Translations under genes and position numbers: made by a program | The notes under the pieces: generated by a model | What the model was told of the DNA's origin: nothing | Database searches by the model: none | Seen by the model: only the letters and a program-made list of their open reading frames with translations | In this document: one piece after another, positions 34,701 through 62,944 of the stretch | How the letters are laid out: the number at the start of each line of letters is the position of its first letter | Position numbering within the stretch: the first letter of the stretch is position 1 | From: Squalus acanthias | Taxonomy: Eukaryota | Direction of reading: 5' to 3' | Length of the DNA stretch: 64,000 bases | Assembly: GCA_030390025.1 (NCBI GenBank) | Contig: JASTWF010000334.1 | Coordinates: 310,001-374,000, forward strand

Positions 34701-37700
34701 GGAAATGTTGGTGTTCAGAAGGACCTGGCTTTCCTTGTACACGAATCACTGAAGGTTAACATGCAGGTACAGCAAGCAATTAGGAAAGTAAATGATATGT
34801 TAGCCTTTATTTCAAAAGGATTGGAGTGTAAGAGGAAAAAATTCTTAGTGCAATTATATAGGGCCTTGGTGAGACCACACCTGGAGTACTGTGTACAGTT
34901 TTGGTCTCCTTACCCAAGGTAGGACAGACTTGCCTTAGAGGGAGTACAAAGACTGATTCCTGCAATGGAGGGGATTGTCCTATGAGGAGAGATTGAGGAG
35001 ACTAGGCCTATATTCCCTAGAATTTAGAAGAATGAGAGGTGATCTCAATTAAACATATAAAATTCTTACAGGGCTTGACAGGGAGAATGTTTACCTTAGT
35101 TGGGAAGTCTTGAACTAAGGGTCACAGTCTCAGAATAAGGGATTCGCCATTTAGGACTGAGATGAGGAGAAATTTATTCACTCAAAGGGTTGTGAATCTT
35201 TGGAATTCTCTAACCCAGAGGTCTGTGGATGCACAGTCGTTGAGTATATTCAAAGCAGAGAGCGATAGATTTTTTTGGATATTAAGGGAATCAAGGGATA
35301 TGGAGACAGTGGGAAAATTGAGTTGAGGTAGAAGATCAGCCATGATTGTACTGAATGCCGGAGCAGGCTTGAAACGCCAAGTGGCTTACTCCTGCTCCTA
35401 TTTCTTATGTTCTCATGTTCTTATGTTCTTACAACCAGCCCTACAACCCTCGCGATCTCTGCACTCCCCCAATTCTGGCTTTTTGCACAACTGTGATTTT
35501 CACTGCTCAACCATTGGTGGCCGTGCCTTCAGCTGCCTTGGCCCAAGCTCTGTAATTCCCTCCCTAAACCTCTCTGACTCTCTTTACTCCTTCAAGCCAT
35601 TCCTTAAAACCTACATCATTGACCAAGCTTTTGGTCGCCTACCCTGGTGTAACTGGGTGGAGCCTGTACGATGCAAGCTCTGCCCATTTGTAGCTGAATT
35701 TTGCATGAGGGTCCTACAATCGGCGTAGGACCCGATTTGCATATTTAAGTAGGTTCAAGCCTGTTTCAGGCGGGCTGCTCGCCCATTTTCAGGCCGGGCT
35801 GAATATTGCGTCGGGTGGGCTTTGGGCATCAAAGGGGCGATCGAGGTGTCCTCCTACCGCCTGTTTCTTAAGTGCAAAATGGACAGGTGTGAGTTGACTT
35901 TCTCCCCCAATAAATTAAATTCCATTTTTATTTAATGACATTCTGGAATTTGTCCATTGTTCTGTGAAAGTTAAGTGAGTGGCCTTCATTTTTCTTTACC
36001 TATATTTTAACAGTTTTCGCATTATAAATGTTGACGTAAAGGAACAAGAAGTGCATACTATATACACGGTTTTAGTAATATATGGATCATTTCTTCCTTC
36101 AAATATTTAAAAGGGAATGTGTGGCCAACGTGCTCTCCTGAAAGTAGTAATACAAGTAGAATAAATATCATGGAAGTCCTAAACAGTCTAAAAGGGCTCA
36201 AAATAAATTAGCCCCAGGTATACAATTTATCTTGCTAATATCACATGGGGGAATTTAAATATTTAAATGCAAATAGATGAACATTGCCCAATAGGAAGGG
36301 AGCAAATGAATTGACCTGGGGAGACATTACAGACCCATTCAATGAAAGAGACCTGGGAAGACCATTCAATGTAAAACCAATAAACATTGGATGCATCTTG
36401 TCGGCTTTTGAAAATGTCTGAAATCTTAGCTGAACGGATACAGGTTTTTCACAACTATCTGCCCTTTCAATGGGCTGACAGCAGATCCTTTAAATGGACC
36501 TTGTCATCTTTGATCTGAAGAGCAGGATCTGGAGCCCAATCCTGTCCCCACCAAACTTCCACACAATGCATTTTGCAGAAGGTTTCACTGGATGGTGATC
36601 AGGACCAGGGAGTCGCGCTGATTTTACTCTTTTCTAATCCAGAGACACTCAGACCAGTTGTAACTCCCTCATCACTGTCCATGGATGAACCTGGGACCCT
36701 CCTTGTCTGTAGGGCTCATTGTCACAGTTCAGTGCCCTCAGTGTTTAATGTAGAATACAATGTAGACCATGTTACCCACTGATGGAACACACTGAGTCAA
36801 TCAGAACTGTCCAGATATAAACAAGAAGGTTCTTTCATTCTCTGTGTCTGGTCATATTTAGAAACACTGAGGAACAAAGCCAATAACTTAAAATGGAGAC
36901 TCCAGGGACTTACCTCAGCTTCTATCCAATTCTTTTTCTGAGGGACAAACTGGTAACAATAACCAAAATAAAATCTGCTGTTGAAACAATATCCGCTCCG
37001 AAGGACGTCACGTTTTTCAAGGTCCTGATCCTGATCCGTCTGTGTCTCCAGTTGCCCATTCTCCAATGTGCTACTCGGAGTATCAAAACCTGCAGTTAAA
37101 GGGAATTAGACTAAACAAGCTGCAATAGTCACAACAGCAATCCCCAAACCTTCAAAGCTTCTGATTTGTGAGGCTAGAAATTGATGGGCAGATGGTGGGC
37201 GGGGCCTGCACAGGGGGCGGGGCTTGCTCAGGGGTCATGGCTTTTCACCTTCCTGCACAAACCTGTCCTCACACACCATGTTTGTTTACATAGAATTATA
37301 TAGAAGTTACAGCACAGAATCAGGCCATTTGGTCCAACAAGTCAATGCCACAGGAGCCTCCTCCCTCTCTATTTACTTCCTCTAACTCTATCAGCATATC
37401 ATTCTATTCCTTTTCCCCTCATGTGCTTATCTAGCTTCACCTTAATGCATCTATGCTGTTCGCCTCAACTACTCCATATTGTAGCAAGTTCCAGATTCTC
37501 ACCACTCTCTGGGTAAAGAAGGTTCTCCTGAAATCCTTATTGGATTGATTGGTGACTATCTCATATTTATGACTCAAACTGGAATTTTTCATCAACTTTC
37601 CTTCAAATTTCCACACTTCCTTTGTCTTCACATGGTCCATTTCCGACTCTTCCCTTCCTTGGCTTCTCCATCTCCATTTCTGGGAATAGGCTGTCAACCA

Positions 37701-40700
37701 ATATCTATTATAAACCCACTGACTCACACATCTTTCCCCCCCTTTCCCTTTCAGCATTCCGAAAGGACCGTATCCTCACTACACATTGGTCCACTCTTTC
37801 ATCACTCTAGAAAGCTCCAAACACTTGCAGAAACGTACACAGAGCCAGTAGAAATTAACCAGCAACTAACCTGAAAGTGGTTGATGAGCCCTTTAAATAT
37901 CGCTGGTGGGGCTCCTTGCAGCAGCTGAACGCATGTTCAGCTCTGCGAGGTTAACACAGGGCGTTAGTTCCAGGATGACAATGGCAGTGCTGGTGTCAAA
38001 TCAGCGTGCAACGCTGATTGATGTCACAATCTGGTTACTCTACATACTTCTGGCGCCGCTCCCAATGCCGCGCTAACGCTGTCACCAAGGTGGCATCCGG
38101 TGCGGCCCACACCAGAATTGTGCGTGCGCGCGGCTCGGACACCATTTCAACCAAAAGTGGCACCCGTAGCGCCCAAACAACGAGAGCTATGCAATTGAAT
38201 TTTTATGTCCTAGACTACCCAACCAACGGAAATAGTTTTTATCTACCCTATCAGTTCTTCTTAATATCTTCAAAACTTCGATCAAATCAGCCCTTAATCT
38301 TCTAAATTCCAGGGAATACAGCCTAAGTTTGTCTAATCTCCCGTCGTAATTTAACCCTTGGAGTGCACGTATCACTCTGGTACATCTACAATGCACTCCC
38401 TCCAAGACTAATACATCCTTCCTATGGTGTGGTGCCCAGAACTGAACACAGTACTGCAGGTGTGGTCTAACCAGGGCTTTGTATCGATGTAGCATAACTT
38501 CTACCCCCTTGTGGCTGCTGTGTTTCCGACATTACAACAGTGACTGGACTTCAAAAAGTACTAGCCCGCTTCTACCTCCTTCCCAAGATCCACAAACAGG
38601 ACTGCCCTGGTAGACCCATCGTTTCAGCCTGCTCTTGCCCCACAGAACTTATCTCTTCCTATCTCGACTCTATTTTTTCTCCCCTTGTCCAGTCTCTTCC
38701 CACCTACATCCGCGATTCCTCTGACGCCCTCCGCCACTTTAACAGTTTCCAGTTTCCTGGCCCCAACCGCCTCCTTTTCACCATGGACGTACAATCCCTC
38801 TACACCTCCATCCCCCACCAGGATGGCCTGAGGGCGCTCCGCTTCTTCCTTGAACAGAGGCCCAACCAGTCCCCATCCACCGCCACCCTCCTCCGCCTGG
38901 CTGAACTTGTTCTCACATTAAACAACTTCTCCTTTGACTCCACTCATTTCCTCCAAATCAAAGGTGTTGCTATGGGTACCCGCATGGGTCCTAGCTATGC
39001 CTGCCTTTTCGTGGGATATGTGGAACACTCTTTGTTCCAGTCCTACTCGGGTCCCCTCCCTCACCTCTTTTTCTGGTACATTGACGACTGTATCGGTGCC
39101 GTTTCCTGCTCTCGCCCTGAACTAGACAATTTCATTCACTTTGCCTCCAATTTCCACCCTTCCCTCACCTTCACATGGTCCATCTCCGACTCTTCCCTTC
39201 CCTTCCTCGACTTCTCCGTCTCCATCTCTGGGGATAGGTTATTGACCAACATTCACTACAAGCCCACTGACTCCCACAGCTACCTGGACTACACTTCCTC
39301 CCACCCCGCCTCCTGTAAGGACTCTATTCCCTTCTCCCAGTTTCTCCGTCTCCGCCGTATCTGCTCCAACGATGCCACCTTCCATACCAGTGCTTCCGAC
39401 ATGTCTTCCTTTTTCCTCAACCGAGGATTCCCCTCTACCGTGGTCGACACGGCCCTCGACCGTGTCCGTTCTATCTCCCGCACTTCTGCCCTCACACCGG
39501 CCCCTCCCTCCCTCCCGGAACCACGATAGAGTTCCCCTTGTCCTCACCTTTCACCCCACCAGCCTCCACATTCAACGGATCATCCTCCGCCATTTCCGCC
39601 ACCTCCAACGTGATCCCACCACCAAACGTATCTTCCCCTTACCTCCCCTTTCAGCATTCCGTAGGGACCGTTCCCTCCGAGACACCTTAGTCCACTCCTC
39701 TATCACCCCCAGCACCCCTTCCCCCTCACCCGGCACCTTCCCGTGCAAGCGCAGGAGATGCAACACCTGCCCTTATACATCCCCCCTTCCCACTCTCCAG
39801 GGCCCCAAACACCCCTTCCAGGTGAAACAGCGATTTACTTGCACTTCTTGCAATCTAATATACTGTATTCGCTGCTCACGATGTGGTCTCCTCTACATTG
39901 GGGAGACCAAACGCAGATTGGGTGACCGCTTTGCGGAACACCTCCGTTCAGTCCGTAAGGGTGACCCCGAGCTTCCGGTCGCTTGTCATTTTAATTCACC
40001 CCTCCATTCCCACTCAGACCTCACCGTCCTCGGCCTCGTGCATTGTTCCACGGAAGCTCAACGTAAGCTCGAGGAACAGCACCTCATCTTTCGTTTAGGC
40101 ACTTTACAGCCTTCCGGACTCAATATCGAGTTCAACAATTTCAGATCATAACCTCGGCCCCTACCACATATGTATACATTTTATCCACCCTTTTGGTTCG
40201 TGCCTTTTTCCTTTTTTTTCTCTCTCTCCCCCTACAGCAGCTGTCTCTCATTCTGTCAGCATTTCACACCTCACCTTTTGTTTCTTAACCTGTCTCTACT
40301 TACCATAGTTATTCCTCACCCCAGCCTCCCCCTTGCATTTTTATCTGTTTCATTTCCTGCTCTATTCTCAATTCTGACGACGGGTTGTGACCTGAAACGT
40401 TAACTCTGCTCCTCTCTCCACGGATGTTGCCTGGCCTGCTGAGTTTTTCCAGCGTTTTCTGTTGTTGTTTCGAAAAGTACCACATTGGCTGTAAAGCGCT
40501 TTGGGACGTCTGGTGATTGTGAAAGGCGCTATATAAAGGCAAGACTTTCTTTCTTTCTTCTTTCTATTCTAGTCCTCTAGATATAAAGGCCAACATTCCA
40601 TGTGCCTATTTGATTATTTTCTGTACCTGATCATGACATTTTTACAATATGTACATGAACCCCTAAGTTTATTTGGACCTCTACTGTTTCTAAATTTTTA

Positions 40701-43012
40701 CCATATGGAAAGTTAATTGGATATAAGACACTATATCGCCCCCAAGCCCACGGAAAGACAATGGGTTATTAGACACTATCCCGCCCCCTGGGGTTATTAG
40801 AAACTATCACCACCCCGCCCCCGGGTTTATTAGACACTATCACCACCCCGCCCCCGGGTTTATTAGACACTATCACCCCCCCACCCCCGGGGTTATTAGA
40901 CACTATCCCCGCTCCCCCCCCGGGGTTATTAGACACTATCCCCCCCCCCCCCCCCCGAGGTTATTAGACACTATCCCCCACCCCCGGGGTTATTAGACAC
41001 TATCCCCCCCCCCCCCCCCGGGGTTATTAGACACTATCCCCTCCCCCCCCCCCCGGGGTTATTAGACACTATCCCCCCCCCCCCCCGGGGTTATTAGACA
41101 CTATCCCCCCCCCCCGGGGTTATTAGACACTATCCCCCCCCCCCCCCCCCGGGGTTATTAGACACTATCCCCCCCCCGGGGTTATTAGACACTATCCCCC
41201 CCCCCCGGGGTTATTAGACACTATCCCCCCCCCCCCCCCCGGGGTTATTAGACACTATCCCCCCCCCCGGGGTTATTAGACACTATCCCCCCCCCCCCCG
41301 TGGTTATTAGACACTATCCCCCCCCCCGGGGTTATTAGACACTATCCCCCCCCCCCCCCGGGGTTATTAGACACTATCCCCCCCCCCGGGGTTATTAGAC
41401 ACTATCCCCCCCCCCCGGGGTTATTAGACACTATCCCCCCCCCCCCCGTGGTTATTAGACACTATCCCCCCCCCCCCCGGGGTTATTAGACACTATCCCC
41501 CCCCCCCCCCCGGGGTTATTAGACACTATCCCCCCCCCCCGGGGTTATTAGACACTATCCCCCCCCCCCCGGGGTTATTAGACACTATCCCCCCCCCCCC
41601 CGGGGTTATTAGACACTATCCCCCCCCCCCCCCCCGGGGTTATTAGACACTATCCCCCCCCCCCGGGGTTATTAGACACTATCCCCCCCCCCCCCCCGGG
41701 GTTATTAGACACTATCCCCCCCCCCCCCCCCCCGGGGTTATTAGACACTATCCCCCCCCCCCGGGGTTATTAGACACTATCCCCCCTCCCCAATGGTTTA
41801 CTCAGCTGAGCCGTGAATGAAATCCTCTCGAGTGAGCTCAACGCCAAGTGAGGAATTCACTGGATCATTTTCTGTTGGCCGGTGTGATGTTAACGAGCGG
41901 CACAAATTAATAATAAACTATGTCCCCAAATTGGCGCAGCCTCCCGACACATTCCAGCTTTAACTGAACAGGATCTGGACACAGGATCCGGGTCCACCAG
42001 GGGTGGGGATTCCAGGCCAGAGGAGCAGGCTGGACCCCCGAAGATCGAACAGTGGGGGTGAAGGATACACAAGAATGTTTGTTTATGAGAAGGAAGTGGG
42101 CGAACCCATGAGCAGGTGAGTGAGATTAGACTGGGTGCTTTAATAAAGGGTATGGGGAGTGAGCAGGAGAGTGGGATTAGACTGGTCGGGATAATAAAGT
42201 GTATGGGGAGTGAGCAGGTGAGTGAGATTAGACTGGTTGCTTTAATAAAGGGTATGGGGAGTGAGCAGGAGTGGGAGTAGACTGGTTGGGATAATGAAGG
42301 GTATGGGGAGTGAGCAGGAGAGTGGGATTAGACTGGTTGAGATAATAAAGTGTATGGGGAGTGAGCAGGAGAGTGAGATTAGACTGGTTGTGATAATAAA
42401 GGATATCGGGAGTGAGCAGGAGAGTGAGATTAGACTGGCTGGGACATTAAAGAGTATGGGGATTGAGCAGTAGTGTGGAATTGGACTGGGTGGATATTAA
42501 AGGGTATGGGGAGTTGAGCAGGAGACTGGGCTTAGACTGGCTGGAATATTAAAGGGTATGGGAAGTGAATAGGTGAGTGGGATTAGATTGTGTGGGATAT
42601 TAAAGGGTACGGGGAGTGAGCCGGAGAGTGGGATTGGAATAGGTGAGAGACTGAAAGTTATGGGATGTTCGCAGGAGAGTTTGATTAGAATGGGTGGGAT
42701 ATTTGAGGGTATGAAGAGTGACCAGGAGAGTGAGATTAGCTTGGGTGGGCTATTAAGGAGTATGGGGAGTGGGCAGAGAATGGAATTGGACTGGGTAGAA
42801 TATCAAAGCTTTGCAAAGTTAGATAGTTGCCCATTTTAGGATATTCCTTCAGGTGCCACCCCTTTCTATTCCCTCTAATTTAGACAGCAGGTAATCCACG
42901 AACTTTCCACCTCACAGCATTAACCTGTCCTCACACACCATGTCTGGTTGACCCTACCTGCCACATCACTGACGAGCAATGCACTCAGCACCAAAACCGT
43001 CACCAGCATCAT
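13624..43012 (-). CDS. Secreted prepro C-type lectin gene A (REG/ladderlectin-like single CTLD); coding exons 43012-42958, 37089-36914, 17269-17128, 17042-16934, 13703-13624; 186 aa if the +1 frameshift is corrected
   Basis: All introns GT-AG with compatible phases. Product: MMLVTVLVLSALLVSDVAG-FDTPSSTLENGQLETQTDQDQDLEKR-DVLRSGYCFNSRFYFGYCYQFVPQKKNWIEAELHCRALAPGGRLASIHSQEQNEFIRT/VIQAKDASNPYTWLGLSDIYKEEAFLWTDGSETDFTNWGTGEPNNAQGIEDCLHLNYPTRGLWNDVPCDQQHPFVCSYKLACS. Confidence 0.9.
13798..15444. mobile_element. Degenerate Harbinger derivative in the last intron of lectin A
   Basis: TSD TCA; Myb/SANT-like relic on + (INAAWLHIAQE...RRTRLQWHKPFNDL). Confidence 0.7.
16038..16735 (+). repeat. 33-bp minisatellite (CAGTGTTACACCCAGTGTACGTTCCTCTATCGA)n, about 21 copies
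   Basis: Tandem unit read directly; explains the repetitive 11-aa ORFs. Confidence 0.95.
16934..17042 (-). CDS. Lectin A coding exon 4
   Basis: CAG|EEAFLWTDGSETDFTNWGTGEPNNAQGIEDCLHLNY|GTAAGT; EPN sugar-binding motif. Confidence 0.92.
17128..17269 (-). pseudogene. Lectin A coding exon 3 with a +1 frameshift
   Basis: 142 bp between phase-0 sites (141 expected); LHC...LASIHS in one frame and WLGLSD in the next; CCC run at 17190-17192. Confidence 0.85.
21228..22154 (+). CDS. CR1 ORF1p: zinc finger, coiled coil, SGNH esterase
   Basis: CSSC...CGKC; LRVRELELEL-type heptad region; IVIGDS; HIGTND; DGLH. Confidence 0.92.
   Translation: MAGEAVKCSSCRMFEVRDAVGVPADYTCGKCTHLQLLENRVRELELELDELRIIREAEEVIDRSFRDVITPKHEDRWVTVRGARRKQSVQGSSVVVPLSNRYTALNTVEGDDLPVVSHGDRISGAGSVPVAQKGRGESRRAIVIGDSIVRGTDRRFCGSKRDSRMVCCLPGARVHDVSDRVFRILKGEGEQSQVVVHIGTNDIGRRRDGDLKQEFRELGWKLRASTNHVVISGLLPVPRASELRNRERVQINTWLQGWCRGEGFSYVDNWSTFWGRWDLYKQDGLHLNQRGTNILGGKFATALRGGLN
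22155..25051 (+). pseudogene. CR1 ORF2p (APE endonuclease + RT), open except one TGA at 22340-22342
   Basis: YFNARNI...ITETW, GDFN, SDHN; PQGSVLGP, FADD; 899 aa open downstream of the stop. Confidence 0.9.
29010..29518 (+). mobile_element. L2-type LINE 3' fragment
   Basis: Ends AAAGGCGCTATATAAAT...GTTGTTG; related pieces at ~33600-33735 and ~35430-35640. Confidence 0.65.
31440..32129 (+). mobile_element. 3' fragment of the second LINE family, inserted within an antisense copy of the same family
   Basis: ORF EYSPFAW...IQDKAARLI...HSLHHRR; A-rich tail; minus-strand tail pieces at ~31388-31436 and ~32130-32198. Confidence 0.75.
32202..32869. mobile_element. Harbinger-derived MITE
   Basis: TIRs GGGGGAAAAATT / AATTTTTCCCCC; TSD TAT. 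Confidence 0.88.
36914..37089 (-). CDS. Lectin A coding exon 2 (propeptide and start of the CTLD)
   Basis: CTGCAG|...DQDQDLEKR...C...GYCYQF...KNWIEAE|GTAAGT. Confidence 0.92.
37290..38510 (-). mobile_element. CR1, Penelope and Harbinger-end fragments in lectin A intron 1
   Basis: CR1 3' region on the minus strand; 37580-37810 resembles the Penelope ORF; ~37860-38210 resembles 57930-58200 inverted. Confidence 0.65.
38562..40472 (+). mobile_element. 5'-truncated Penelope-like element (RT + GIY-YIG), one frameshift near 39500
   Basis: GVAMG, YIDD; NLIYCIRCSRCGLLYIGET; 8-bp TSD AAAAGTAC (38554-38561, 40473-40480) within an L2-tailed fragment. Confidence 0.93.
40370..40405 (+). ncRNA. Minimal hammerhead ribozyme motif (slightly degenerate)
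   Basis: CTGACGA-c-GGGT-tgtg-ACCT-GAAACGTT-AACT. Confidence 0.6.
40765..41790 (-). repeat. G-run minisatellite (GATAGTGTCTAATAACCCC-Gn), left-arm copy
   Basis: Roughly 30-35 units with variable C-runs on +. Confidence 0.95.
42108..42797 (+). repeat. 51-bp diverged minisatellite, about 13 copies
   Basis: Unit GGGAGTGAGCAGGAGAGTGGGATTAGACTGGTCGGGATAATAAAGTGTATG. Confidence 0.9.
42958..43012 (-). CDS. Lectin A coding exon 1 (signal peptide)
   Basis: Exon starts at 43040 after TTTCAG; MMLVTVLVLSALLVSDVA|GTAGGG. Confidence 0.9.
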
Positions 43013-43118
43013 GTCTGCAGTGAAGTTCCTTTCCTCTCACCTGAAACACAAGGAAAAGATTCAACATTAGTGTCAAGATTTCAAATTAAAGATTGGGATT
43101 TCCTGCTCCCATTCCTAC

Positions 43119-43264
43119 CTCTCTTTCTCTCCCAGTTGTCTGATGTGATGAGGTTTCGAGTGTCACTGCATATATACATCGCAGATTGTGGAGACCTTTG
43201 GAACCATTGAAATCAGATCCAATTGGCTGGACCATCAATGATCTCAAAATTACTGCTGGCCAAT
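43119..43264 (-). promoter_or_regulatory. Lectin A promoter and short non-coding first exon
   Basis: TATA-like 43170-43176; CCAAT 43260-43264; donor GAG|GTAGGA at 43119; same layout in copy B. Confidence 0.65.
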
Positions 43265-44079
43265 CAGTGACTGGCAGCTCAGAACAGGAGGGACTGGAAA
43301 CCACTGGAATGTTTTGTGAGCGACACATGAGATTGTACAACGTGGCACTGTAACTGCTCACTGAGAAATGGAAACTGCAGTCACGCTTCCTGACCCAGTG
43401 ATCAGCCTGTTAGGGAATGCATTTATGATATTAGGATTTAATGATTATTATCAATGAGAACATTTAGGATTGGGTGACCATTGTATTGAGGTGAAATCCC
43501 CCAAATAAAGAGATAATATAAAAACATGAGAATTTTTATATAGAACAATCCAATCCCTTTTGTAATAGATCTGAACCCCATCTATTCCCCATTTCTCACC
43601 ATGGCAGAAGGTCTCCTTCATGCACTGGCTGCAGTGAGATTGTAATCTGTTTGTAAAAAACAGGGTCAATTTGGAATCATTGGCACCTTTCAAAAAGGAG
43701 CTGGATCGATGTCTGTTCAGAAGGGGGATTGAGGGATGGAGAGATAACGGAACTGCTTGATGTTTTTCCAGGGACAGAACAGCGCATTCCCTAAACCAAC
43801 AGCTGGTGTGGGCGGGAGTCCATGATGGAATTATGAGACCTGAACAATGAATGGAGTGGGATTGATGGGCTGAATGACCTTTTCTCACTCCACATTCTCT
43901 CCTGTTCCAATGAATGGGTTTACATTTTCACCGCACCCAGTACACAGATCAGATCCTTCCACATATCCCTCAATCACTTCTCACTCCATAGACACAACGA
44001 ACGGCCATTAGGTCCATCAATCCCACTCCATTCAAGGTCCAGGTCTCATTATTTCATTATGGGCTCCCTCCCACAACAG

Positions 44080-45234
44080 TGGGGAAAAATTCAGTACCTT
44101 AGTGGATCCTGTTAGCACCAGCAGATGGTGCTAACGGGGCACTAGTGCAGTATCACCGGGGCGAGGCGAATCCAGCACCACATGGCAAATCCTGCCCCCC
44201 CCCCGCAGCGCTGCCATTAACAGTCATCGCCAGGAGCCTTCTACCTTAGTGCCTGGAGGTAACAGCGATGGAGAGCGGGTGTGAAGCAACAGGAAGCCGG
44301 TTCCAGGGATGGTATTTAAAGGGATCACCAGTAATGAGTCGCAGCTGTAGGTTAGTGGAGTTTCAGAGCTTTCTTGCGAGTTTCACATAGAGCATCAGAC
44401 TCATGCCGTAATTTCAAGATTATTTAGTATCAGGACTGTTGTAGCAACTAAAAAGTAGCAACATTTATTCTTAACGAAATCAAATTGCTACACTTGGTTA
44501 CGTTACTGGGGTCTGTACCGGCAGTCGACATCACCCTCCAGGATCTATGGCGGAGGGAGCGCAGGCAGTGAGAAAGACTGGAACATGTGGCCAGAGGGAG
44601 GAGGAGGGCCATCAGGGCTCTCAACAGGAGGCTTGTTGAAGCATTTACTCACCCTGGCCACCCGAGTGAGGTCATTAAATTTCTTCTTGCATTGTGTGTG
44701 CGTCCGAGACCTGCTGCACTACCTCCCTCCACATGGCGTGGAAGACTTGCGACAAGGGCCTCCTGCCACTTGCCGGGTAGAGCACCGCCCTCTGTCTCTC
44801 CACAGCGAACACCAACATCTCCAATGCTTGATTGCAGAATTTGCGGGCTCTCTCCCTGGGGCGTGGATCTGCCATGAGTACAGCTGTTTCAGTCCTCCGG
44901 CTCCTTCTCCTTGACCTGCTGCTGCTTGCTGAGGCAGCTGCACAGCTAGCAATGCTGAGAATGAGGTTCTGCAGCATCAATGAACCTCCCCTTTAAGAAC
45001 TGGGAAAAGCCTGTGGCAATCATAACTTGTGATTAGACTGCACCCGATATTAGCACACCCTTTGAGTGTAACGCCAATGAGCTTGGGCTTTAAGACTTGA
45101 GTTAGCGCTCCAATCATTTCTTTGAGCATTGAGAATGAATTTTGCATGCAGTCTAAAGTATTAGCGCCTGGCGCTAATTCTTCAACTTTTCTAATTATAC
45201 CGCCCATTCCTGGGCTATAATGAATTTCTAGCCG
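44080..45234. mobile_element. Non-autonomous Harbinger between the two promoters
   Basis: TSD CAG; the empty site is visible in the left arm; Myb/SANT relic on minus (RERARKFCNQALEMLV...WREVVQQVS). Confidence 0.82.
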
Positions 45235-45761
45235 CAGCTGTTGGCTTAGAGAATGCTCTGTTCAGTCCCTGGAAAACAATGAATGAGTTCTATTATCTCC
45301 CCATCCTTCAATCCCCCTTCTGAACAGACATCAATCCAGTGCCAATGATTCCCAATTGGTTCTTTACAAACAGATTACAATCTCACTGCAGCCAGTGCAT
45401 GAAGGAGAACTTCTGCCATGGTGAGAAATGGGGGAATAGATGGGGTTCAGATCTATTACAAAAGGGATTGGCTTCTTCCGTATAAAAATTCTCATGTTTT
45501 TGTGAGTATTATCCCTTTATTTTTGGGGTCTTTACTTCAATATAATTGTCACCAAATCCTAAATGTTCTCATTGATAATATTCAGTAAATCCAAATATCA
45601 TAAATGCATTCACTTACAGGCTGATCACTGGGTCAGGAACTGTGACTGCAGTTTCCATTTCTCAGTGAGCAGTTACAGTGCCACGTTGTACAATCTCATG
45701 TGTAGCTCACAAAACATTCCAGTGGTTTCCAGTCCCTCCTGTTCTGAGCTGCCAGTCACTG

Positions 45762-45911
45762 ATTGGCCAGCAGTAATTTTGACATAATTTATTATCCAGC
45801 CATTTAGATCTGATTTCAATGGTTCCAAAGGTCTCCACGATCTGCGATTTATATATATGCAGTAGCACTCGAAACCTCATCACATCAGACAACTAGGAGA
45901 GAGAAAAAGAG
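45762..45911 (+). promoter_or_regulatory. Lectin B promoter and short non-coding first exon
   Basis: ATTGG 45762-45766; TTTATATATAT 45848-45858; donor GAG|GTAGGA at 45911. Confidence 0.65.
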
Positions 45912-46017
45912 GTAGGAATGGGAGCAGGAAATCCCACTCTTTAATTTGAAGCCTTGACACTAACATTGAATCTTTTCCTTGTGTTTCAGGTTAGAGGAAA
46001 GGAACTTCACTGCAGAC

Positions 46018-46072
46018 ATGATGCTGGTGACGGTTTTGGTGCTGAGTGCATTGCTCGTCAGTAATGTGGCAG
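46018..46072 (+). CDS. Lectin B coding exon 1 (signal peptide)
   Basis: MMLVTVLVLSALLVSNVA|GTAGGG; 1 nt different from copy A. Confidence 0.9.
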
Positions 46073-46165
46073 GTAGGGCCAACCAGACATGACGTGTGAG
46101 GACAGGTTAATGCTGTGAGGTGAAGAGTTAATGGATTACCCGCTGTGTAAATTAGAGGGAACAGA

Positions 46166-48381
46166 TGTAAAGGAATGAGCCATATTTCAGAAAAATACAC
46201 CATCCTATGAACAGAATTCTGATATTATTAAAATATGACATACTGGGGTTAAAAATCTAAAAGCCTCAATGACACAAGCTGTAAACAGAAATACAGGCTT
46301 CTGAGATAAGATGAAGTTTTAACACAAAGCTGTAAACACCATACAAGCTTTTGAAATGGGAAATGGTTATTGACACTTAGACAATGGCCTATTGAAGAAG
46401 CAAAGGCTTGGTTCCAAGGAGTCTGCAGTTTGGAACCAACACAATAGCTATACCTAGTTTAAAGTGTTAAAAATTAACACGTCGAACAGAAACACAGAAC
46501 ATTAAAAACCATGTGCCTTTGTAAAAGTAACATCAAATGAAACAGGAAACAAGATTATATATACAACCAATTGAAGTAGCTAAGAAATGCATGGAACACT
46601 CTGGTTGAAGTGGTTTTGATTTACATATTGTAAATATGATACCTACAGAACACTTTGAAGATATAATATCAATAGATGTACCAAGCAATCACATTGTGCT
46701 TGTATTGAACTTGGAACAGTTGGGAGACATGACGTCTGCTTATAACCAGTTAAGGGGATATTAAGAGTTCAATAGAAGACCTCGTAAGAATGGCATCAAA
46801 TAGATAAATCTGTTAAACCACATTTGATAAGTTATAAAACACCTATACAGCAGACAGGATTCTGAGAGTTAGCAGCTGAACTAACAGTAAGAATAGAAAG
46901 AAGTCACCAGAAAGACTGACTAGAGATAATTAGCTTACATCAGCAGAAAACTTCAAAGGAGATACCACTGCAAAAAGAGTTTAAGATATGGGATTTTCAA
47001 ATGGGAAAACAGAAGTCGCTGGAAAGGGCAGGCGATTCTCAGCTTCAGAGGCAGGCTCTGTAAGTTTTTAACTCTTTGGGCTGGATTTTCATTGACCCGT
47101 GGAGGTGGGTTTGGAGGCGTTTGGTGGGTTAAAATTGCAAAAACTGGCGGGTGGGCACAAGTCCGCCTCCATCCCGCCTCCACGCAATTTTCATTAAATC
47201 GTGTCTGCTGGTCCCGACTCCGTCCCGCCTTTAAGAGGCAGGATAGGCTGTTAACGCCCTTAACAAGCACTAAATTGGCTCTATAATGCCATTTTGAAAA
47301 GCCTTTGTGATTTTAACCCTTGATCTACGTGAAGCACGCCTGTTCTGAACCACGATTGTGAAACCTGGCGGGAGCACATTTGGATAGCTGACTATCAGCT
47401 ACAGGTCCACTATTACAACGGAGATGTGATGAAGGTAGTAGGAGTATTTGGTCTGAAAGTCGCCTCTGATGCTGCTGCATTGAAGGTATTCAGAGACTGC
47501 CTGGCCTTTGCTGTGCGAGGACCTGGATGCAAAATGAATTTCTCTCTCTCTCTCTCTCTCTTGAGCTGCTGCTCATTTTGCATCCAGGTCCTCTCACAGC
47601 AAAGGCCAGACAGTCTCTGACCTTCAATGCAGCAGCAATGATGACATCGTCAGAGGCGACTTTCAGACTGAAACCATTAATTGGGTCATGGGTTCCCACA
47701 TGCTAGAACTCAATTGCCCAATTAGGTGAAAATTGCATCAATCTCCCACATCCAATTGCAGTTGGGTGGATAACACGAAAAGCGGATGACACGACTCCAA
47801 CCCGCCCCAGTATCAAAATCCAGCCCTTTGAGTCTCGGGGATCAAACGGTACTTTAATTGATTTTGGTGGATATTCTGGATTAAGAATAAGACTTCGAAA
47901 TGTAAACATGTAACGAAGTTAAGATTTGAGAATAAGGATCTCTGAGAATAGAATTGTAAGCTATTTGTATTTTGAACTGTTAAAGTTGCGATTGACTCAT
48001 CAGCTGTTAACTAAATGTCAGTTCCTTAATAGATCTATATATTTTTTGAATTGTCTCACAGAGTATTTCTGTATCAACCTCGCAAACTCAAATCTCTGTA
48101 CACTCTTTTGTGAGGAGTTGCAGAATTCGGGGGGGTTTTCCGGACCCTCATAATATCCAGAAGGTTACAGTCTAGTTAAACTTATTAAAAGTGCTATCTG
48201 GAGGACAGCAATATCTTCAAGTCGTTTCTTTCCTTTAGGGAGAGATAGTCTGGACCTTTAGACCCAATTAAGTGTCTTATAGGATTCGGCTATCTCTAAC
48301 TTTAGTTGAAGGGGAACGTCTGGGGAATACGCCTGATCTGGGGTAGCCCGAGAAGGGCTAGGACTTGTAATTATCCCTTCA
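46166..48381 (+). mobile_element. Probable solo LTR (~1.46 kb without the nested MITE)
   Basis: TG...CA ends; 4-bp TSD CAGA; absent from the left arm; TATAAAA at 46833; no ORF. Confidence 0.72.
47078..47826. mobile_element. Harbinger-type MITE with an internal long hairpin
   Basis: Perfect 12-bp TIR GGGCTGGATTTT; TSD TTT. Confidence 0.85.
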
Positions 48382-49640: not shown

Positions 49641-49854
49641 ATTCTTTGGCCTGGGTACCCACCTGTCATGGGCCTGGATCCTGTGGAGTGTGTCGGGAGG
49701 CTGTGCCAATTTGGGGAGATAGTTTATTGTTAATTTGTGCCTTCAGTTACTATCACACCAACCAATAGAAACTGATCCAGTGAATTCCTCACTTGGCGTT
49801 GGGTGAGTTCACTGAAGAGGATTTCACTCACTGATCAGCTGATTAAACGGCTGG

Positions 49855-51787
49855 GGGTGGGGGCGCGATAGTGTCTAATAACCCCGGGGGGGGGGGGGGG
49901 TGGTGGGATAGTGTCTAATAACCCCGGGGGGGGGGGGGATAGTGTCTAATAAACCGGGGAGGTGGGGGGGGATAGTGTCTAATAACCCCGGGGAGGGGAT
50001 ACAGTGTCTAATAACCCGGGGGGGGGGGGGGGGATAGTGTCTAATAACCCCGGGGAGGGGGGGGGGATAGTGTCTAATAACCCCGGGGGGGGGGGGGGAT
50101 AGTGTCTAATAACCCCGGGGGGGGGGGGATAGTGTCTAATAACCCCGGGGGGGGGGGGGGGGGGGATAGTGTCTAATAACCCCGGGGGGGGGGGATAGTG
50201 TCTAATAACCCCGGGGAGGGGGAACAGTGTCTAATAACCCGGGGGGGGGGGGGGGGGATAGCGTCTAATAAACCGGGGAGGTGGGGGGGGATAGTGTCTA
50301 ATAACCCGGTGGGGGGGGGGGGGGATAGTGTCTAATAACCCGGTGGGGGGGGGGGGGATAGTGTCTAATAACCCCGGGGGGGGGGGGTGGGATAGTGTCT
50401 AATAACCCGGTGGGGGGGGGGGGATAGTTTCTAATAACCCGGGGAGGTGGGGGGGTTAGTGTCTAATAACCCCGGGGGGGGGGGGGGGATAGTGTCTAAT
50501 AACCCCGGGGGGGGAGGCGGGATAGTGTCTAATAACCCCGGGGGGGGGGGGGATAGTGTCTAATAACCCCGGGGGGGGAGGGGGGGGGATAGTGTCTAAT
50601 AACCCCGGGGGGGAGGGGGGGGGATAGTGTCTAATAACCCCGGGGGGGGGGGGGAGGATAGTGTCTAATAACCCCGGGGGGGTGATAGTGTCTTATAACC
50701 CGGGGGGGGGGGGGATAGTGTCTAATAACCCCGGGGGGGGTGGGGGATAGTGTCTAATAACCCGGGGGGGGTGGGGGATAGTGTCTAATAACCCTGGGGG
50801 AGGGGGGGGGGGATAGTGTCTAATAACCCCGGGGGAGGGGGGGGTAGTGTCTAATACCCCGGGGGATAGTGTCTAATAACCCCGGGGGGGGGGATAGTGT
50901 CTTATAACCCGGGGGGGGGGGGGGGGGAGTGATAGTGTCTAATAACCCCGGGAGGAGGGGGGGGGGGGAGAGTGTCTAATAACCCCGGGGGGTGGGGGGG
51001 GGATAGTGTCTAATAACCCGGGGGATAGTGTCTAATAACCCCGGGGGGGGGGGGGGGATAGTTTCTAATAACCCCGGGGGAGGGGGGGGGGAGAGTGTCT
51101 AATAACCCCGGGGGGTGGGGGGGGATAGTGTCTAATAACCCCGGGGGAGGGGGGGGGGGTAGTGTCTAATAACCCGGGGGGGGTGGGGGGGATAGTGTCT
51201 AATAACCCCGGGGGATGGGGGGGGGATAGTGTCTAATAACCCCGGGGGGTGGGGGGGGGATAGTGTCTAATAACCCCGGGGGGGGGGAGGTAGTGTCTAA
51301 TAACCCCGGGGGAGGGGGGGGGGAGAGAGTGTCTAATAACCCCGGGATAGGGATAGTGTCTAATAACCCCGGGGGGTGGGGGGGGGGGATAGTGTCTAAT
51401 AACCCCGGGGGGTGGGGGGGGATAGTGTCTAATAACCCCGGGGGGGGAGGTAGTGTCTAATAACCCCGGGGAGGGGGGGGGGGGAGAGAGTGTCTAATAA
51501 CCCCGGGGGGTGGGGGGGGATAGTGTCTAATAACCCCGGGGGGTGGGGGGGGGATAGTGTCTAATAACCCCGGGGGGGGTGGGGGATAGTGTCTATTAAC
51601 CCTGGGGGAGGGGGGGGGTAGTGTCTAATAACCCCGGGGGAGGGGGGATAGTGTCTAATAACCCCGGGGGGTGGGGGAGGGGGGGGGATAGTGTCTAATA
51701 ACCCCGGGGGAGGGGGGGGGATAGTGTCTAATAACCCCGGGGGAGGGGGGGGGTAGTGTCTAATAACTCCGGGGAGGGGATAGTGTT
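49855..51787 (+). repeat. G-run minisatellite, right-arm copy (about 60 units)
   Basis: Reverse complement of the unit at 40765-41790. Confidence 0.95.
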
Positions 51788-58364: not shown

Positions 58365-59175
58365 CATGGGTGCGCTAGTCGGAATTCCTCCTGGAATACA
58401 GCATGACTTGGAGAATGAACAGAGGGCATGCAGAGCAGGACAAGCTGCTGGAAGAGGGAGGAGGAGGAGGGGGAGAAGGACTCTCAGAAGAAGGCCATAT
58501 CTGCCCAGGGTGTCAGGGAGCAATTCTCTTACCTGAACCTCAGTGAGGAACAATGTGTGAGACGTCTGCACTTCAGTAAGGACGTCCTCACTGAAATATG
58601 CCACCTGCTGCAGCCACAACTACAACCTCAGAGCAGAGAAAGGACTCCATTGCTAGTGGGTGTGAAGGTGACCGTGGTAATGAACCTTTATGCGTCAGAC
58701 TCCTTACAGGCTGGAGCTGGATATATTTGCAACATCTCGCAGTTTGCCATCCACTGTTGCATAAGGGAGGTCACTGAGGCTCTCTATTTAAGAGAGCTGA
58801 CTACATTTCATTTTCTCTTGCCATAGACCAGCAGGCGGAGTGAGCACGCAGCTTCACAAGGATTGCAGGCTTTCCCATGGTGCAGGGCGCCATTGATTGC
58901 ACACACATCTCTTTGCGGGCAGCGGATGTCAACTCTGCCATGTACTGGAACCGAAAGGAATTCCACTCCCTCAACGTGCAGCTGGTGCGTGACCATAGGC
59001 AGCGAATCATGCAGGTCAATGCCCGGTATCTTGGAAGCATTCATGGTGCCTTCATTCTGCGGCAGTCCGCCATGCCATCTGCATTTGAGCCGTCATGGCA
59101 AACCAAAGGGTGGCTACTGGGTGACAAGGGCTATCCGCTTATGACATGGCCAATAACTCCTGTGCACAACCTCTG
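58365..59175 (+). pseudogene. Degenerate Harbinger transposase
   Basis: RRLHFSKDV, GAIDCTH, GDKGY with frameshifts; 3' end deleted. Confidence 0.85.
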
Positions 59176-59179
59176 GGAT

Positions 59180-60621
59180 CCAGAGCCATGGTGGCAGCAG
59201 TCTGAGCTTCCACTGCAGCACCCAGACATTGAGTGGCTGCTGCTTGTGCTGCAATGGAAGCTGAGACATCGGCCATCAGACGCTGCATCATAGTTGGGGC
59301 CACAAGTGTGCTAATGGAGTTGGCCACCACGTCCATGCTGGGAAGGATTGGCTCCAAGCTCTGTGCAAAGCCCTGCACCAAGTTGGTGCCCAAATCATCC
59401 ATGCTGCTTGACATTGCACGCAGGCTTTCTGGCAGGCTTCCCAATGCACCAGGCATTTCAGTGTGTACACCCATCAGCCTTCTTCTGTAGCTTCCCCCGT
59501 CGAAGTCCTCATCTGAGTCCTCTGCAGCAGAACTCATTTGCGACCTCACCCTCTGGCGAGCTGGCACCTGCGCTATCCTTTACCCCTGCCCTGGCTGCAG
59601 CCCACTCGTGCCCGGTGTCTCACCACGTGTAGAACCCGCCTCAATGCTATCCTCTAAATGACGTGCAGTATCAATAACTGAGCTGGTGGCTGCGAGTGTT
59701 AAATCGAGTGACTGTGTCTTCATATTCACTATCTTCCTGTTCTTCCACCACTGCCTGGCCAGGTGGCAGTTCTTGGGTGTCTGAAAGGAAAAAGGCACGT
59801 GGGTAAGTTTGTGGTGAGGGGATAGGGGGCTAATGTAATAGGTGCATGCTTACACCATCTACAGCTTGTAAACCAGAAGAGATTGTAGGATGAGTGGGAA
59901 GTGGGATGTGAGACGGAGGATTAGATATGAGGATACCATCATCTTCTATGGTTTCAGCCCCGCTGCTGGCTACGGTCTCAGCAATGGCCGTTCCAATAAT
60001 GGCCAGCACTGTCTCCTCCATGGGGGTTAGGACGTGCAGGTACGCCTGTCCCCCGCTTGTTAGCTACTGCTGCCTCTGGTTGTGCACCACCTTGTCCTGC
60101 AAGAGAGAGGGAAATGTGTCAGTGAGTGTGGTGGAATCTGTTTGGGTGATGTGGCTGTCATGATTGAATAGCTGGCAGTATAAGAAAGCTGTGAGATGTG
60201 GGTGTGAAGCTTGCAACAGTGCTAAGTGTGTGAGGGTGAGGTGAAACTATGAATGTTCGGTATGAGTCCTGATTGATAGAGATTGTTGGTAGGTGAGTGA
60301 TGGGGGTGTGGTGCATTGAGCAGTGGCTGAGGGTAGTGGTGCAGTTGGTACGATATGACATTTGAAGATGCATCCACTGACCTTGACCATTCGTGTGAGG
60401 TCATTGAACTTCTTACGGAACTGCACGAAGGGCCTCAGGGCTTGACCCCTGGCACTGACTGCCACGGCTACCTGCTTCCACTGTCTTCTGAGTGTGTGTC
60501 TGGAGGGCCTCCTGGCCCCCTGCGGATACAGCACTTCTTTGCTCCTTTCCACCTCCTCCACCAGGGCCTCCAGTGCAGCGTCGGAAAACCTTGGAGCCCG
60601 CTGTTTCCCATCTTGTGCCAT
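59180..60621 (-). pseudogene. Degenerate Harbinger Myb/SANT gene
   Basis: RAPRFSDAALEALVEEV...FRKKFNDL; downstream parts resemble 55568-57564. Confidence 0.8.
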
Positions 60622-61409
60622 TATTGATAGTTTACCAGGTCAGAATCCGTTGTAGAATGACTTCCAGCACCTGTTCCAGCCACAATACACCTGCCCTTTA
60701 AGAAGTGCAGGCTGGCTTTAACTGGTGCTAGCCTCTCATGATTTTGGGCCCCCTGCTGATGCGTGCAGCCAATCAACAGCGAGGTTAGCGCTAGCTGCTG
60801 GCAGAAGTCATGTAAATGAGCAGGCAGCACAAAGTTGGCGTGTTGCCTGCATTACATTGAACGGGCGTGGGTTAATCACGCATCACGATCCCCATGCTCG
60901 TTTTTGGGGGCTATCGAATTTAGCCCCTGGTGCCTTGCGCTAAATGTAGGCTAAACCCATCTGAATGCGCTACCAAAAATTGCCCCCAAAGATTAATAAG
61001 TGTAAATAAGACTTCTAGTGGCAGAAGGGTCAGTAACCAGAGGACACAGATTTTAGTTAATTGGCAAAAGAGCCAGAGGGGAGATGAGGAGATTTTTTTT
61101 TTACACAGTGAGTTGTTATGATCTGGAATGCATTGCCTGAAAGGGCGGTGGAAGCAGATTCAATAACTTTCAAAAGGGAATTGGATAAATATTTGAAAAG
61201 CTGAAATTTGCAGGGTTATGGAGAAAGGGCAGGGGGAGTGGGACTAATTGGAAAGCTCTTTCAAAGAGCTGGCACAGGCATAATGGGCTGAATGGTCTCC
61301 TTCTGTGCTGTATCATTCCATGATTCTATGACGCCTTGAATCAGAAATAAACAGTGAATGTTTGGGGATTGTTCTGTGATTATTGCCGCTTGTTTCCCTT
61401 TAATTGCAG

Positions 61410-61585
61410 CTCACGTTGCCCTGAATAGAGCATTGGAGAACGGACAACCAGAGACAGAGACTGATCAGGATCAGGACCTTGAAAAACGTGGCGTCTTTGG
61501 GAGAGGATCTTGTTCCGACGGCTGGTTTTATCTTGGTTATTGTTACCAGTAACTCTCTATGAGAAAGAATTGGATATATGCTGTG
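61410..61585 (+). pseudogene. Lectin B coding exon 2 with a premature TAA (61550-61552); remaining exons lie beyond the window or are lost
   Basis: TTGCAG|AHVALNRALENGQPETETDQDQDLEKRGVFGRGSCSDGWFYLGYCYQ*LSMRKNWIYAV|GTAAGT; 176 bp, same as copy A. Confidence 0.88.
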
Positions 61586-61617: not shown

Positions 61618-62378
61618 GGCCCTGAAATTCGCCTCTCTGGCTTGCCGCGGGGGTAAGGATCGCGCGCGCACTTACCTACCGCGCCTGCCGTTGACCTCTG
61701 GGCCCACGGGGACTTCAGCTCCTGGGCCTGCTCCAAGTGCCGGCGCGCAGTGCTTGCATGTCCCAGGGGCGTAGTTAGTGCGATGCGTACCCTGGGATCA
61801 CGTGGGCCATGGAGAGCCAATGGCAGCAGACCATCTTTCATTCACAGATTTGACAGGACCTGTCAAATCTATGAATTGAAATGGGCCCCAAAAGAACAGC
61901 TAAACCTCAAATAAATTTTAAAAAACCATCACATTTATAAAATAACTATAGGTTAAATAAATTAACTACTTTAAACAAAAATTAAAATTTTTGAAAAAAT
62001 TAAAAAACTTTTTAACAGTGCTAAAAATAAACTTACCTTTCTTTAAAGTATCTAAAAAAGATAAACCTGTTGAAATTTTTTTCAAATTATAATTAATTTA
62101 CCACTTACCTTGTTGAAAACAGGTCCTGCGCCTCCTTTCTAAAAGTGCAGGTTCTTCAATACTTACCCTCCCGTAGAAACCTGAAAAAAAACCTAAGTTT
62201 GCTGCGTGCGCGCAGCCTCTACTGCACACGCGGTTCACCTATGAACCGCTCCCTTCACCAGAGCGGAAGTTCTGGTTTCCCGCGCATGCGCAGTGCATGC
62301 AGGAAACCGGCACTTCAGGACGCCTTACGGGTGAGTACACAGTGCGTACTCACCCGGCAAGGGCCGAATTTTTGGCCC
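61618..62378. mobile_element. Harbinger-type MITE 32 bp after the lectin B exon 2 donor
   Basis: TSD ATT; the empty site is visible in copy A (~36880); same family as 5459-6224, opposite orientation. Confidence 0.85.
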
Positions 62379-62944
62379 ATTGGGTTTGTTACTCATTGTT
62401 TCTAAATATGACGGGACGCAGAGAATGAAAGAACCTTCTTTTTTATATCTGGACAGTTCTGATTGACTCAGTGTGTTCCATCAGTGGGTAACATGGTCTA
62501 CATTGTATTCTACATTAAACACTGAGGGCACTGAACTGTGACATTGAGCCCTGCAGACAAGGAGGGTCCCAGGTTCATCCATGGACAGTGATGAGGGAGT
62601 TACAACTGGTCTGACTGTCTCTGGATTAGAAAAGAGTAAAATCAGCACGACTCCCTGATCCTGATCACCATCCAGTGAAACCTTCTGCAAAATGCATTGT
62701 GTGGAAGTTTGGTGGGGACAGGTTTGGGCTCCAGATCCTGCTCTTCAGATCAAAGATGACAAGGTCCATTTAAAGGATCTGCTGTCAGCCCATTGAAAGG
62801 GCAGATAGTGTGAAAAACCTGTAACCGTTCAGCTAAGTTTTCAGACATTTTCAAAAGCCTTCAAGATGTACCTAAGCTTTGGTTAGTCTTGTTGACTGGG
62901 AATTTATATTGAATGGATGCCCCAGGTCACTTTCACTGAATGGT

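What the first reader, a model, noticed from the sequence alone, without database searches (positions are those of the whole stretch)
36333..62943. Large inverted duplication with a ~120-bp spacer places two lectin genes head-to-head
Seen: reverse-complement homology in mirrored order: 43881/44001 (inner ends), 43806/45235, 43040/45990, ~42860/48390, ~41800-42020/49645-49850, the G-run satellites, exon 2, and 36333-36880/62380-62943. Arm-specific insertions have empty sites in the other arm. Without the central Harbinger the two TATA boxes are about 1.5 kb apart. Inference: a fold-back duplication that created a bidirectional promoter region, open to arm-to-arm gene conversion or inversion.
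Basis: partly seen in the sequence, partly recalled or inferred. Interest (0 to 1): 0.78.

Follow-up and report, generated by a model that had tools for sequence, protein, structure and literature searches.

The report
Old head-to-head shark lectin gene pair
A shark genome carries two back-to-back copies of a sugar-binding (C-type lectin) gene from an old mirror-image duplication; both look broken in this assembly, each has its own promoter, and the pair is an ordinary example of gene-cluster evolution with signs of patchy copying between the copies.

Summary
Three arm-specific insertions have target-site duplications and empty sites in the other arm. A contig from a public run matches the spacer and the junction exactly. 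The genes are members of a clustered shark family of secreted single-domain C-type lectins. Arm identity is a mosaic: 4-8% divergence in the two long uninterrupted blocks, 14% in short islands between insertions, 22% in exon 3. B's exon 3 is closer to horn-shark lectins than to A's. Best reading: an old fold-back or palindromic duplicate, partly homogenised by gene conversion until transposon insertions cut the homology, then decaying. 'Bidirectional promoter' is not supported: two separate TATA promoters, 2.7 kb apart, CpG-poor. New member of a known kind; modest interest.

The parts
43883..43999 (.). 117-bp non-duplicated spacer; native upstream flank of the lectin family
   Evidence: X1 contig exact over 43881-44050; X10 contig lays 43595-44004, X2 contig lays 43804-43965
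43803..43882 (-). arm A inner block (mirror of 44000-44079; 14 of 80 differ)
44000..44079 (+). arm B inner block
44080..45234 (.). B-specific non-autonomous Harbinger-type element, 3-bp target-site duplication, very high copy in the genome
   Evidence: family assignment from TIR/TSD form and a Myb-like frame (no Pfam hit): inference
42865..43805 (-). arm A long block: upstream flank, TATA 43176-43170, exon 1, intron 1, exon 2 (69 of 921 differ from B)
45235..46165 (+). arm B long block: upstream flank, TATA 45850-45856, exon 1, intron 1, exon 2
43119..43145 (-). gene A exon 1, non-coding (start inferred from TATA position)
   Evidence: donor at 43118; exon 1-exon 2 splice seen in a family transcript (loose end before 45988)
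42958..43040 (-). gene A exon 2: start codon 43012, signal peptide
36914..37089 (-). gene A exon 3: acidic pro-piece, dibasic KR site, start of the lectin domain
17128..17269 (-). gene A exon 4, 142 nt (3n+1): one extra base near 17197-17194; stop at codon 44 of the exon
16934..17042 (-). gene A exon 5 with EPN motif
13490..13703 (-). gene A exon 6 with WND motif, stop 13626-13624, poly(A) signal 13509-13504 (3' end approximate)
45882..45911 (+). gene B exon 1, non-coding (start inferred)
45990..46072 (+). gene B exon 2: start codon 46018, signal peptide (1 of 55 coding bases differs from A)
61410..61585 (+). gene B exon 3 with in-frame stop at 61550-61552; exons 4-6 are not in the window
46166..48381 (.). 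B-specific LTR-like insertion (TG..CA ends, 4-bp duplication) with a nested MITE-like element at about 47079-47826
42109..42796 (.). 51-bp tandem array expanded in arm A only
40763..41791 (.). C-run minisatellite, arm A (about 33 units)
49853..51786 (.). G-run minisatellite, arm B (about 59 units; same commonest core as A in reverse complement)
61618..62378 (.). B-specific MITE-like insertion 33 bp after exon 3, 3-bp duplication
36335..36884 (-). arm A intron-3 block (21 of 496 differ from B in its main part)
62379..62943 (+). arm B intron-3 block
35644..35695 (-). outermost mirrored block, arm A (mate 63870-63921; 7 of 52 differ)
63870..63921 (+). outermost mirrored block, arm B

Best explanation
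An old inverted (fold-back or palindrome-type) duplication inside a shark C-type lectin gene cluster made two divergently oriented copies, each with its own TATA promoter. The break fell about 0.8 kb upstream of the TATA box, leaving 117 bp of native flank as spacer. The neighbours then exchanged sequence by gene conversion where homology stayed long and unbroken (promoter to exon 2; the intron-3 block). Transposon insertions chopped the rest into short islands that escaped conversion and show the older divergence. Exon 3 lies on such an island and diverged further at amino-acid sites. Both copies later acquired a disabling lesion (birth-and-death decay). Shown: the mirror structure, insertion sites, mosaic divergence, gene model, lesions in this assembly. 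Inferred: fold-back mechanism, conversion and its donor, selection on exon 3, loss of function.
For: Mirrored blocks and empty sites. Junction bridged without a difference by an X1 contig, 119 letters on the left and 51 on the right of 44000; arm A plus spacer continuous in one contig each of X10 and X2, which then run on into other sequence. Nine non-coding blocks differ in divergence, 4% to 24%, chi-square p 6e-9. Short islands 83 of 576 differ against 90 of 1417 in the two long blocks, p 3e-8; block length against non-coding divergence rho -0.86, p 0.007, n 8. At 12 of 29 listed arm positions A and B share a letter that other copies lack, 11 of them in the long block. Exon 3: 38 of 176 differ against 21 of 496 in the next intron block, p 1e-10. 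B exon 3 has 42 identities to two horn-shark proteins but 32 to A; tree support 94/93 for B with three horn-shark rows, A and B together in 0% of 200 bootstrap trees. Insertions ending conversion and a peak of divergence on one exon are described in PMC3924837 (passages).
Against: The AU test does not reject A and B exon 3 as sisters (p 0.10; p 0.135; 55-58 columns). With exon 3 counted, the length-divergence correlation is not significant (rho -0.57, p 0.14), and the test was chosen after seeing the data. Purifying selection could lower divergence in the promoter block without conversion. Exon 3 dN/dS over the whole exon is about 1.1 (Fisher p 1.0); the excess after the KR site (dN 0.30, dS 0.05) has p 0.06 only. 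At 14 of 29 listed positions the other copies side with one arm against the other, and 209 rows of that table were not shown. The spacer is shorter than any of 21 sequenced human fold-back spacers (766-70,466 bp; PMC3907307, passages). The lesions were not checked in reads.
Confidence: 0.5

Rival explanations
1. A younger fold-back duplication (4-8% divergence, the long blocks) followed by accelerated amino-acid change in exon 3, or by import of B's exon 3 from a third cluster member; no arm-to-arm conversion needed.
For: Long blocks hold most of the shared sequence and differ by 4.2% and 7.5%. After the KR site 18 non-synonymous to 1 synonymous difference. The family is multi-copy: several members per species on one contig, and summed depth over the promoter is many times that at the junction (the tool warns depth is no copy number). 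Exon 3 differs more than its own flanks, 38 of 176 against 9 of 90, p 0.03.
Against: Does not explain non-coding islands at 13-24% divergence, including the block next to the junction. Acceleration in A alone predicts asymmetry against all outgroups, but it is seen against 2 of 11 (P0001, P0003: 3 to 13, p 0.02) and not the other 9.
Confidence: 0.25
2. Two already diverged cluster members were brought head-to-head by an inversion or by deletion of what lay between them, and were then partly homogenised by conversion.
For: Exon 3 of A and B fall in different parts of the tree. In the inner block other copies are about 11% from A (18 of 162) while A and B differ by 17.5%.
Against: Two independent breakpoints would have to fall within 117 bp of each other in homologous coordinates, while other copies continue upstream.
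Confidence: 0.2
3. The head-to-head arrangement is an assembly artefact (misjoin or false duplication).
For: No listed contig spans the whole 43400-46200 stretch, and the Harbinger-to-arm-B joint at 45234 was not seen bridged among the 32 pieces shown. X1 may be the source sample. The frameshift in A could be a base-level error.
Against: Arms differ by 4-24% with arm-specific insertions and target-site duplications; no N in the window; exact contig across spacer and junction.
Confidence: 0.03
4. The region works as one shared bidirectional promoter that co-regulates two active lectin genes.
For: Divergent orientation; the two promoter blocks are 92.5% identical, so co-expression is plausible. 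A spliced family transcript is present in a probable RNA run.
Against: Two separate TATA promoters 2,673 bp apart; CpG observed/expected 0.25 and 0.16. Both frames are broken. The transcript's exon-1 end matches neither copy exactly (one repeat unit longer than A, two letters from B).
Confidence: 0.07

Closest known systems
Duplicates under gene conversion with a peak of divergence (human red/green opsin pair; Fawcett and Innan review, PMC3924837, passages read)
   Same: Neighbouring duplicates, low divergence in flanking intron, high divergence on one coding exon; transposon insertions disrupt pairing.
   Different: Inverted, not tandem; overall identity far lower; here the peak could be a mechanical effect of insertions as well as selection; both copies now look disabled.
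Fold-back inverted duplications in humans (Hermetz et al. 2014, PMC3907307, passages read)
   Same: Inverted copy beside a non-duplicated spacer that is native sequence.
   Different: Those are new, megabase, identical-arm rearrangements with terminal deletions and spacers of 766 bp or more; this is old, fixed or inherited, with a 117-bp spacer and no testable second junction.
Large sex-chromosome palindromes of mouse and primates (10.1101/800185, PMC8327919, PMC8600007; search listing and start of abstract only)
   Same: Inverted arms carrying gene copies, arm-to-arm conversion.
   Different: Those exceed 10 kb at over 99% identity; here about 2.2 kb of unique homology at 76-96%.
Single-domain secreted C-type lectins: group VII (REG), group XII (EMBP) and fish antifreeze-protein-like lectins (PMC514892, PMC6817481, passages read); shark 'lectin-like' cluster genes in NCBI
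   Same: [quoted passage not shown]
   Different: Chondrichthyan family without a functional study found; names in NCBI are automatic; orthology to group VII or XII not tested; both window copies broken.
Accelerated evolution of coding regions in secreted lectin and venom gene families (congerin galectins, PMC3269628, passages; snake venom genes, PMC2711939 and PMC6062510, listing and start of abstract only)
   Same: Mature-protein exon more divergent than neighbouring non-coding sequence; signal peptide conserved.
   Different: Signal is weak here (p 0.06) and can be explained by conversion; no evidence that this lectin is a venom component.

Membership tests
Fold-back inverted duplication | Non-duplicated spacer that is native sequence continuous with one arm | tested here: met
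   contigs in X10 (43595-44004) and X2 (43804-43965) run from arm A into the spacer; both are other copies, 89-90% alike
Fold-back inverted duplication | Inverted microhomology (2-8 bp) or inverted repeats at the spacer ends | tested here: inconclusive
   X10 alignment ends at 44004 and arm B begins at 44000, an overlap of about 5 bp with 4 of 5 matching arm A; alignment ends are fuzzy and the block is 17.5% diverged
Fold-back inverted duplication | Second junction (terminal deletion, translocation or template switch back) | not testable with these tools
   outer end of arm B lies at or beyond the window end; no whole genome held
Bidirectional promoter | Divergent start sites within 1 kb | tested here: not met
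   TATA boxes 2,673 bp apart, 1,518 without the insertion; convention from PMC10887517
Bidirectional promoter | G/C-rich shared promoter | tested here: not met
   GC 0.43 and 0.40, CpG o/e 0.25 and 0.16; two separate TATA boxes
Bidirectional promoter | Both genes transcribed from the shared region | tested here: inconclusive
   one probable RNA run laid; spliced family transcript matches neither copy exactly
Large palindrome (sex-chromosome type) | Arms over 10 kb at over 99% identity | tested here: not met
   about 2.2 kb unique homology at 76-96%
Concerted evolution with a peak of divergence | Divergence high on an exon and low in flanking intron | tested here: met
   21.6% against 4.2%; immediate flanks 10%
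Concerted evolution with a peak of divergence | Paralogues closer to each other than to orthologues in converted tracts | tested here: inconclusive
   12 of 29 listed positions shared by A and B against other copies, but orthologues could not be told from paralogues
Single-domain secreted C-type lectin (group VII/XII/AFP-like) | Signal peptide and one C-type lectin domain | tested here: met
   (Lectin_C on exons 5 and 6, below the whole-protein cut-off); homologues carry PF00059
Single-domain secreted C-type lectin (group VII/XII/AFP-like) | Introns upstream of C1, after the WIGL motif, between C2 and C3 | tested here: met
   gene A introns 3, 4, 5 against PMC514892
Single-domain secreted C-type lectin (group VII/XII/AFP-like) | Calcium/sugar site motifs (EPN, WND) | tested here: met
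   present in gene A exons 5 and 6; gene B not in window; binding not tested
Single-domain secreted C-type lectin (group VII/XII/AFP-like) | Intact reading frame | tested here: not met
   frameshift in A exon 4, stop in B exon 3, in this assembly
Group XII (EMBP) | Acidic neck between signal peptide and domain; orthology to EMBP | tested here: inconclusive
   a short acidic piece ending in KR is present; orthology not tested

The most novel reading that the evidence does not exclude
The head-to-head pair is older than the split from horn sharks and has kept a 117-bp spacer since. Arm-to-arm conversion kept promoter, signal peptide and part of intron 3 alike, while transposon insertions fenced off exon 3 and so decided which part of the lectin could diverge. 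That would be a natural, datable test of the idea that insertions end concerted evolution exon by exon, readable across slowly evolving shark genomes.
Probability: 0.25. Interest if true: 0.55.

Novelty: new member of a known kind. Interest (0 to 1): 0.32.

Why it matters
As found, it is a clear but ordinary case of birth-and-death evolution in a shark lectin cluster, with two probably dead copies. Its value is as a small worked example in which homology length, insertion sites and divergence can be read side by side. It would matter more if the junction is shared across shark orders, because that would date a very short-spacer inverted duplication and show insertions limiting gene conversion. 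The family itself (57 of 66 hits from sharks, rays and a chimaera) seems unstudied: four literature searches gave no paper on it or on a head-to-head pair, within an open-access library only.

Tried and rejected
No whole genome is held, so exons 4-6 of B and other cluster members could not be read. Word-indexed protein searches with single exons found nothing; weak evidence, overturned. The run finder on 13000-17700 listed no holder on record as RNA; best share 0.50; small shares were not used as evidence. No joint skipping the central Harbinger and no strand-changing joint at the arms was among the 15 shown (29 not shown): no evidence on insertion polymorphism or flipping. A possible extra small exon at 41800-41870/49750-49800 was rejected: splice phases do not fit and homologues join the signal exon directly to exon 3. 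Collinear-looking matches 40474-40352/53501-53622, 38134-37804/57947-58267 and 37350-37289/61270-61330 were treated as independent repeats, as these sequences match elsewhere in the window or are repeat tails. A Pfam 'Magi peptide toxin' match on exon 6 (E 0.038, below cut-off) was taken as chance. The spacer has no stable fold of its own (-2.7 kcal/mol, no shuffle control). The regex count of satellite cores returned nothing and was redone. Searches for head-to-head venom lectin genes gave nothing relevant, so that recalled parallel is not used. Earlier-finding look-ups near this place, by sequence and by 'lectin' were empty. No structure or complex prediction was run; it would not bear on the claim.

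Full report
Observation. A self-BLAST of the window and a more sensitive left-against-right comparison with the tandem arrays masked show reverse-complement homology in mirrored order around 43883-43999. Shared unique sequence totals about 2.2 kb in spans of 8.2 kb (A) and 19.9 kb (B). Three B-specific insertions have target-site duplications and an empty site in A: 44080-45234, 46166-48381 and 61618-62378. The TATA boxes are 2,673 bp apart, or 1,518 bp without the central element.

Is the junction real? Four public runs were laid on 43400-46200 (all are contigs; 32 of 37,207 pieces shown). One contig of run X1 matches 43881-44050 with no difference, bridging position 44000 by 119 and 51 letters; X1 may be the source sample. 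A contig of X10 (another organism label) lays on 43595-44004 at 90% and then continues for 277 letters unlike the window. A contig of X2 lays on 43804-43965 at 89% and continues for 403 unlike letters. So arm A plus the spacer is the family's ordinary upstream flank, and arm B begins at a break near 44000-44004. That is the geometry of a fold-back or of a palindrome trimmed at its centre (PMC3907307, passages), though human spacers there were 766 bp or longer and microhomology here is inconclusive. No listed piece spans the whole stretch. Misassembly is unlikely given the divergence and the insertion sites.

The genes. Gene A (minus strand) is complete in the window: non-coding exon 1, signal-peptide exon 2 (43040-42958), exon 3 (37089-36914), a 19.6-kb intron, exons 4 and 5 (17269-17128, 17042-16934) and exon 6 (from 13703). 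All introns have GT-AG ends. Exon 5 holds EPN and exon 6 WND; Pfam Lectin_C hits both exons below the whole-protein cut-off and 46 PDB sequences match exon 5. A HMMER search with exon 3 gave 12 hits; the 10 looked up (two long proteins left out) are all shark lectins. A profile search gave 66 proteins, 57 from sharks, rays and a chimaera, with up to six per species on one contig. The window is therefore taken as shark, and the gene as one member of a clustered family. Intron positions match those of group VII, group XII and fish antifreeze-like lectins (PMC514892, passages). In run X16 (RNA by guess) a contig joins an exon-1 end to exon 2, which supports the model; its letters are one repeat unit longer than A and two letters from B, so it may come from a third member or an allele of A. 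That the leading letters of this loose end are a sequencing adapter is recalled, not from a call.

Both copies are broken in this assembly. A exon 4 is 142 nt between phase-0 introns; homologues align in one frame to 17198 and in the next from 17193, and the first frame stops at codon 44. B exon 3 has an in-frame stop at 61550-61552. Neither lesion was checked in reads, since the one read-laying run went to the junction. B's exons 4-6 are outside the window.

Divergence is a mosaic. Non-coding blocks differ by 4.2% to 24% (chi-square p 6e-9 over nine blocks). The two long uninterrupted blocks differ at 90 of 1417 sites, the short islands between insertions at 83 of 576 (p 3e-8); length and non-coding divergence correlate at rho -0.86 (p 0.007, n 8), or -0.57 (p 0.14) with exon 3 counted (post hoc, sites treated as independent). 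Exon 3 differs at 38 of 176 sites with no indel, the next intron block at 21 of 496, the signal-peptide codons at 1 of 55. Over exon 3 dN/dS is about 1.1; after the KR site dN is 0.30 and dS 0.05 (p 0.06). Of the 40 rows shown in the table of other letters, 29 lie in the arms (11 in spacer and Harbinger were dropped; 209 rows were not shown): at 12 A and B share a letter against other copies, 11 of these in the long block; at 14 the other copies side with one arm; 3 fit neither. In a tree of exon-3 peptides (A, B and 42 homologues chosen from about 75 fetched; partial and bony-fish proteins mostly left out; 55 columns) B groups with three horn-shark rows at 94/93 and A lies elsewhere; A and B are together in 0% of 200 bootstrap trees, but the AU test does not reject them as sisters (p 0.135; p 0.10 on 13 rows).

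Mechanism. The simplest account of all of this is an old inverted duplicate whose long homologous stretches kept converting while insertions isolated the rest; a review describes both the ending of conversion by insertions and a peak of divergence on one exon (PMC3924837, passages). Exon 3 sits on a 266-bp island between a LINE tail and a MITE-like insertion, and is still more divergent than its own flanks (p 0.03), so selection for amino-acid change may have added to the barrier effect. I give this 0.5. A young fold-back with accelerated or imported exon 3 gets 0.25; two old paralogues joined by inversion or deletion 0.2. Misassembly gets 0.03.

Bidirectional promoter. Not supported. Each copy has its own TATA box and its own upstream flank, the distance exceeds the 1-kb convention even before the insertion (PMC10887517, passages), and the flanks are CpG-poor. 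Co-expression from two similar promoters is possible but was not shown. Flipping of the centre is possible in principle over a 92.5% identical 0.9-kb block; nothing bears on it.

Novelty. Inverted paralogue pairs, patchy conversion and decay in lectin clusters are known kinds. No paper on this family or pair came up (open-access library only). Verdict: real, new member of a known kind, interest 0.32.

Noticed in passing
window 533-728 and 4820-5015: Pair of 196-bp direct repeats at 98.5% identity flanking about 4.1 kb, inserted in a 23-bp satellite: looks like a young LTR retrotransposon.
   Followed up: no
window 1-535, 5016-5101, 10333-10757, 9016-9073: One 23-bp satellite in three direct arrays and one short inverted piece, split by insertions.
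   Followed up: no
window 17270-36913: Intron 3 of gene A (19.6 kb) is a stack of LINE-like copies, 64-80% alike, nearly all on the + strand (antisense to the gene), giving a strong G skew.
   Followed up: no
window 38498-40470: Penelope-like element in intron 2 of gene A: reverse transcriptase and GIY-YIG frames overlapping in two reading frames.
   Followed up: partly
window about 53610-57925 and 57926-60930: Two abutting Harbinger-type elements in intron 2 of gene B, each with DDE_Tnp_4 and Myb/SANT matches; both transposase frames are interrupted.
   Followed up: partly
window 37241-37287: 47-bp copy of the sequence just after the exon-2 donor lies about 150 bp before exon 3 of gene A (79% to 46081-46127).
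   Followed up: no
window 43882-43892 and 43978-43988: An 11-bp direct repeat sits at the two ends of the spacer; significance not tested.
   Followed up: no
window 43516-43581 and 45440-45502: Upstream flank matches the N-terminus of a predicted horn-shark protein (P0014) at about 72%: probably a mis-predicted exon, showing that this non-coding flank is conserved between sharks.
   Followed up: no
window 40763-41791 and 49853-51786: Both G/C-run minisatellites have the same commonest 15-bp core although their flanks differ by 13%; runs of 5-19 G or C. Exchange between arrays or G-quadruplex formation not tested.
   Followed up: partly
window 16039-16735: 33-bp minisatellite (21 units) in intron 5 of gene A.
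   Followed up: no
tree: Catshark, ray, sevengill and carpet-shark members mostly form lineage-specific groups, as expected from repeated expansion or concerted evolution of this lectin cluster.
   Followed up: partly
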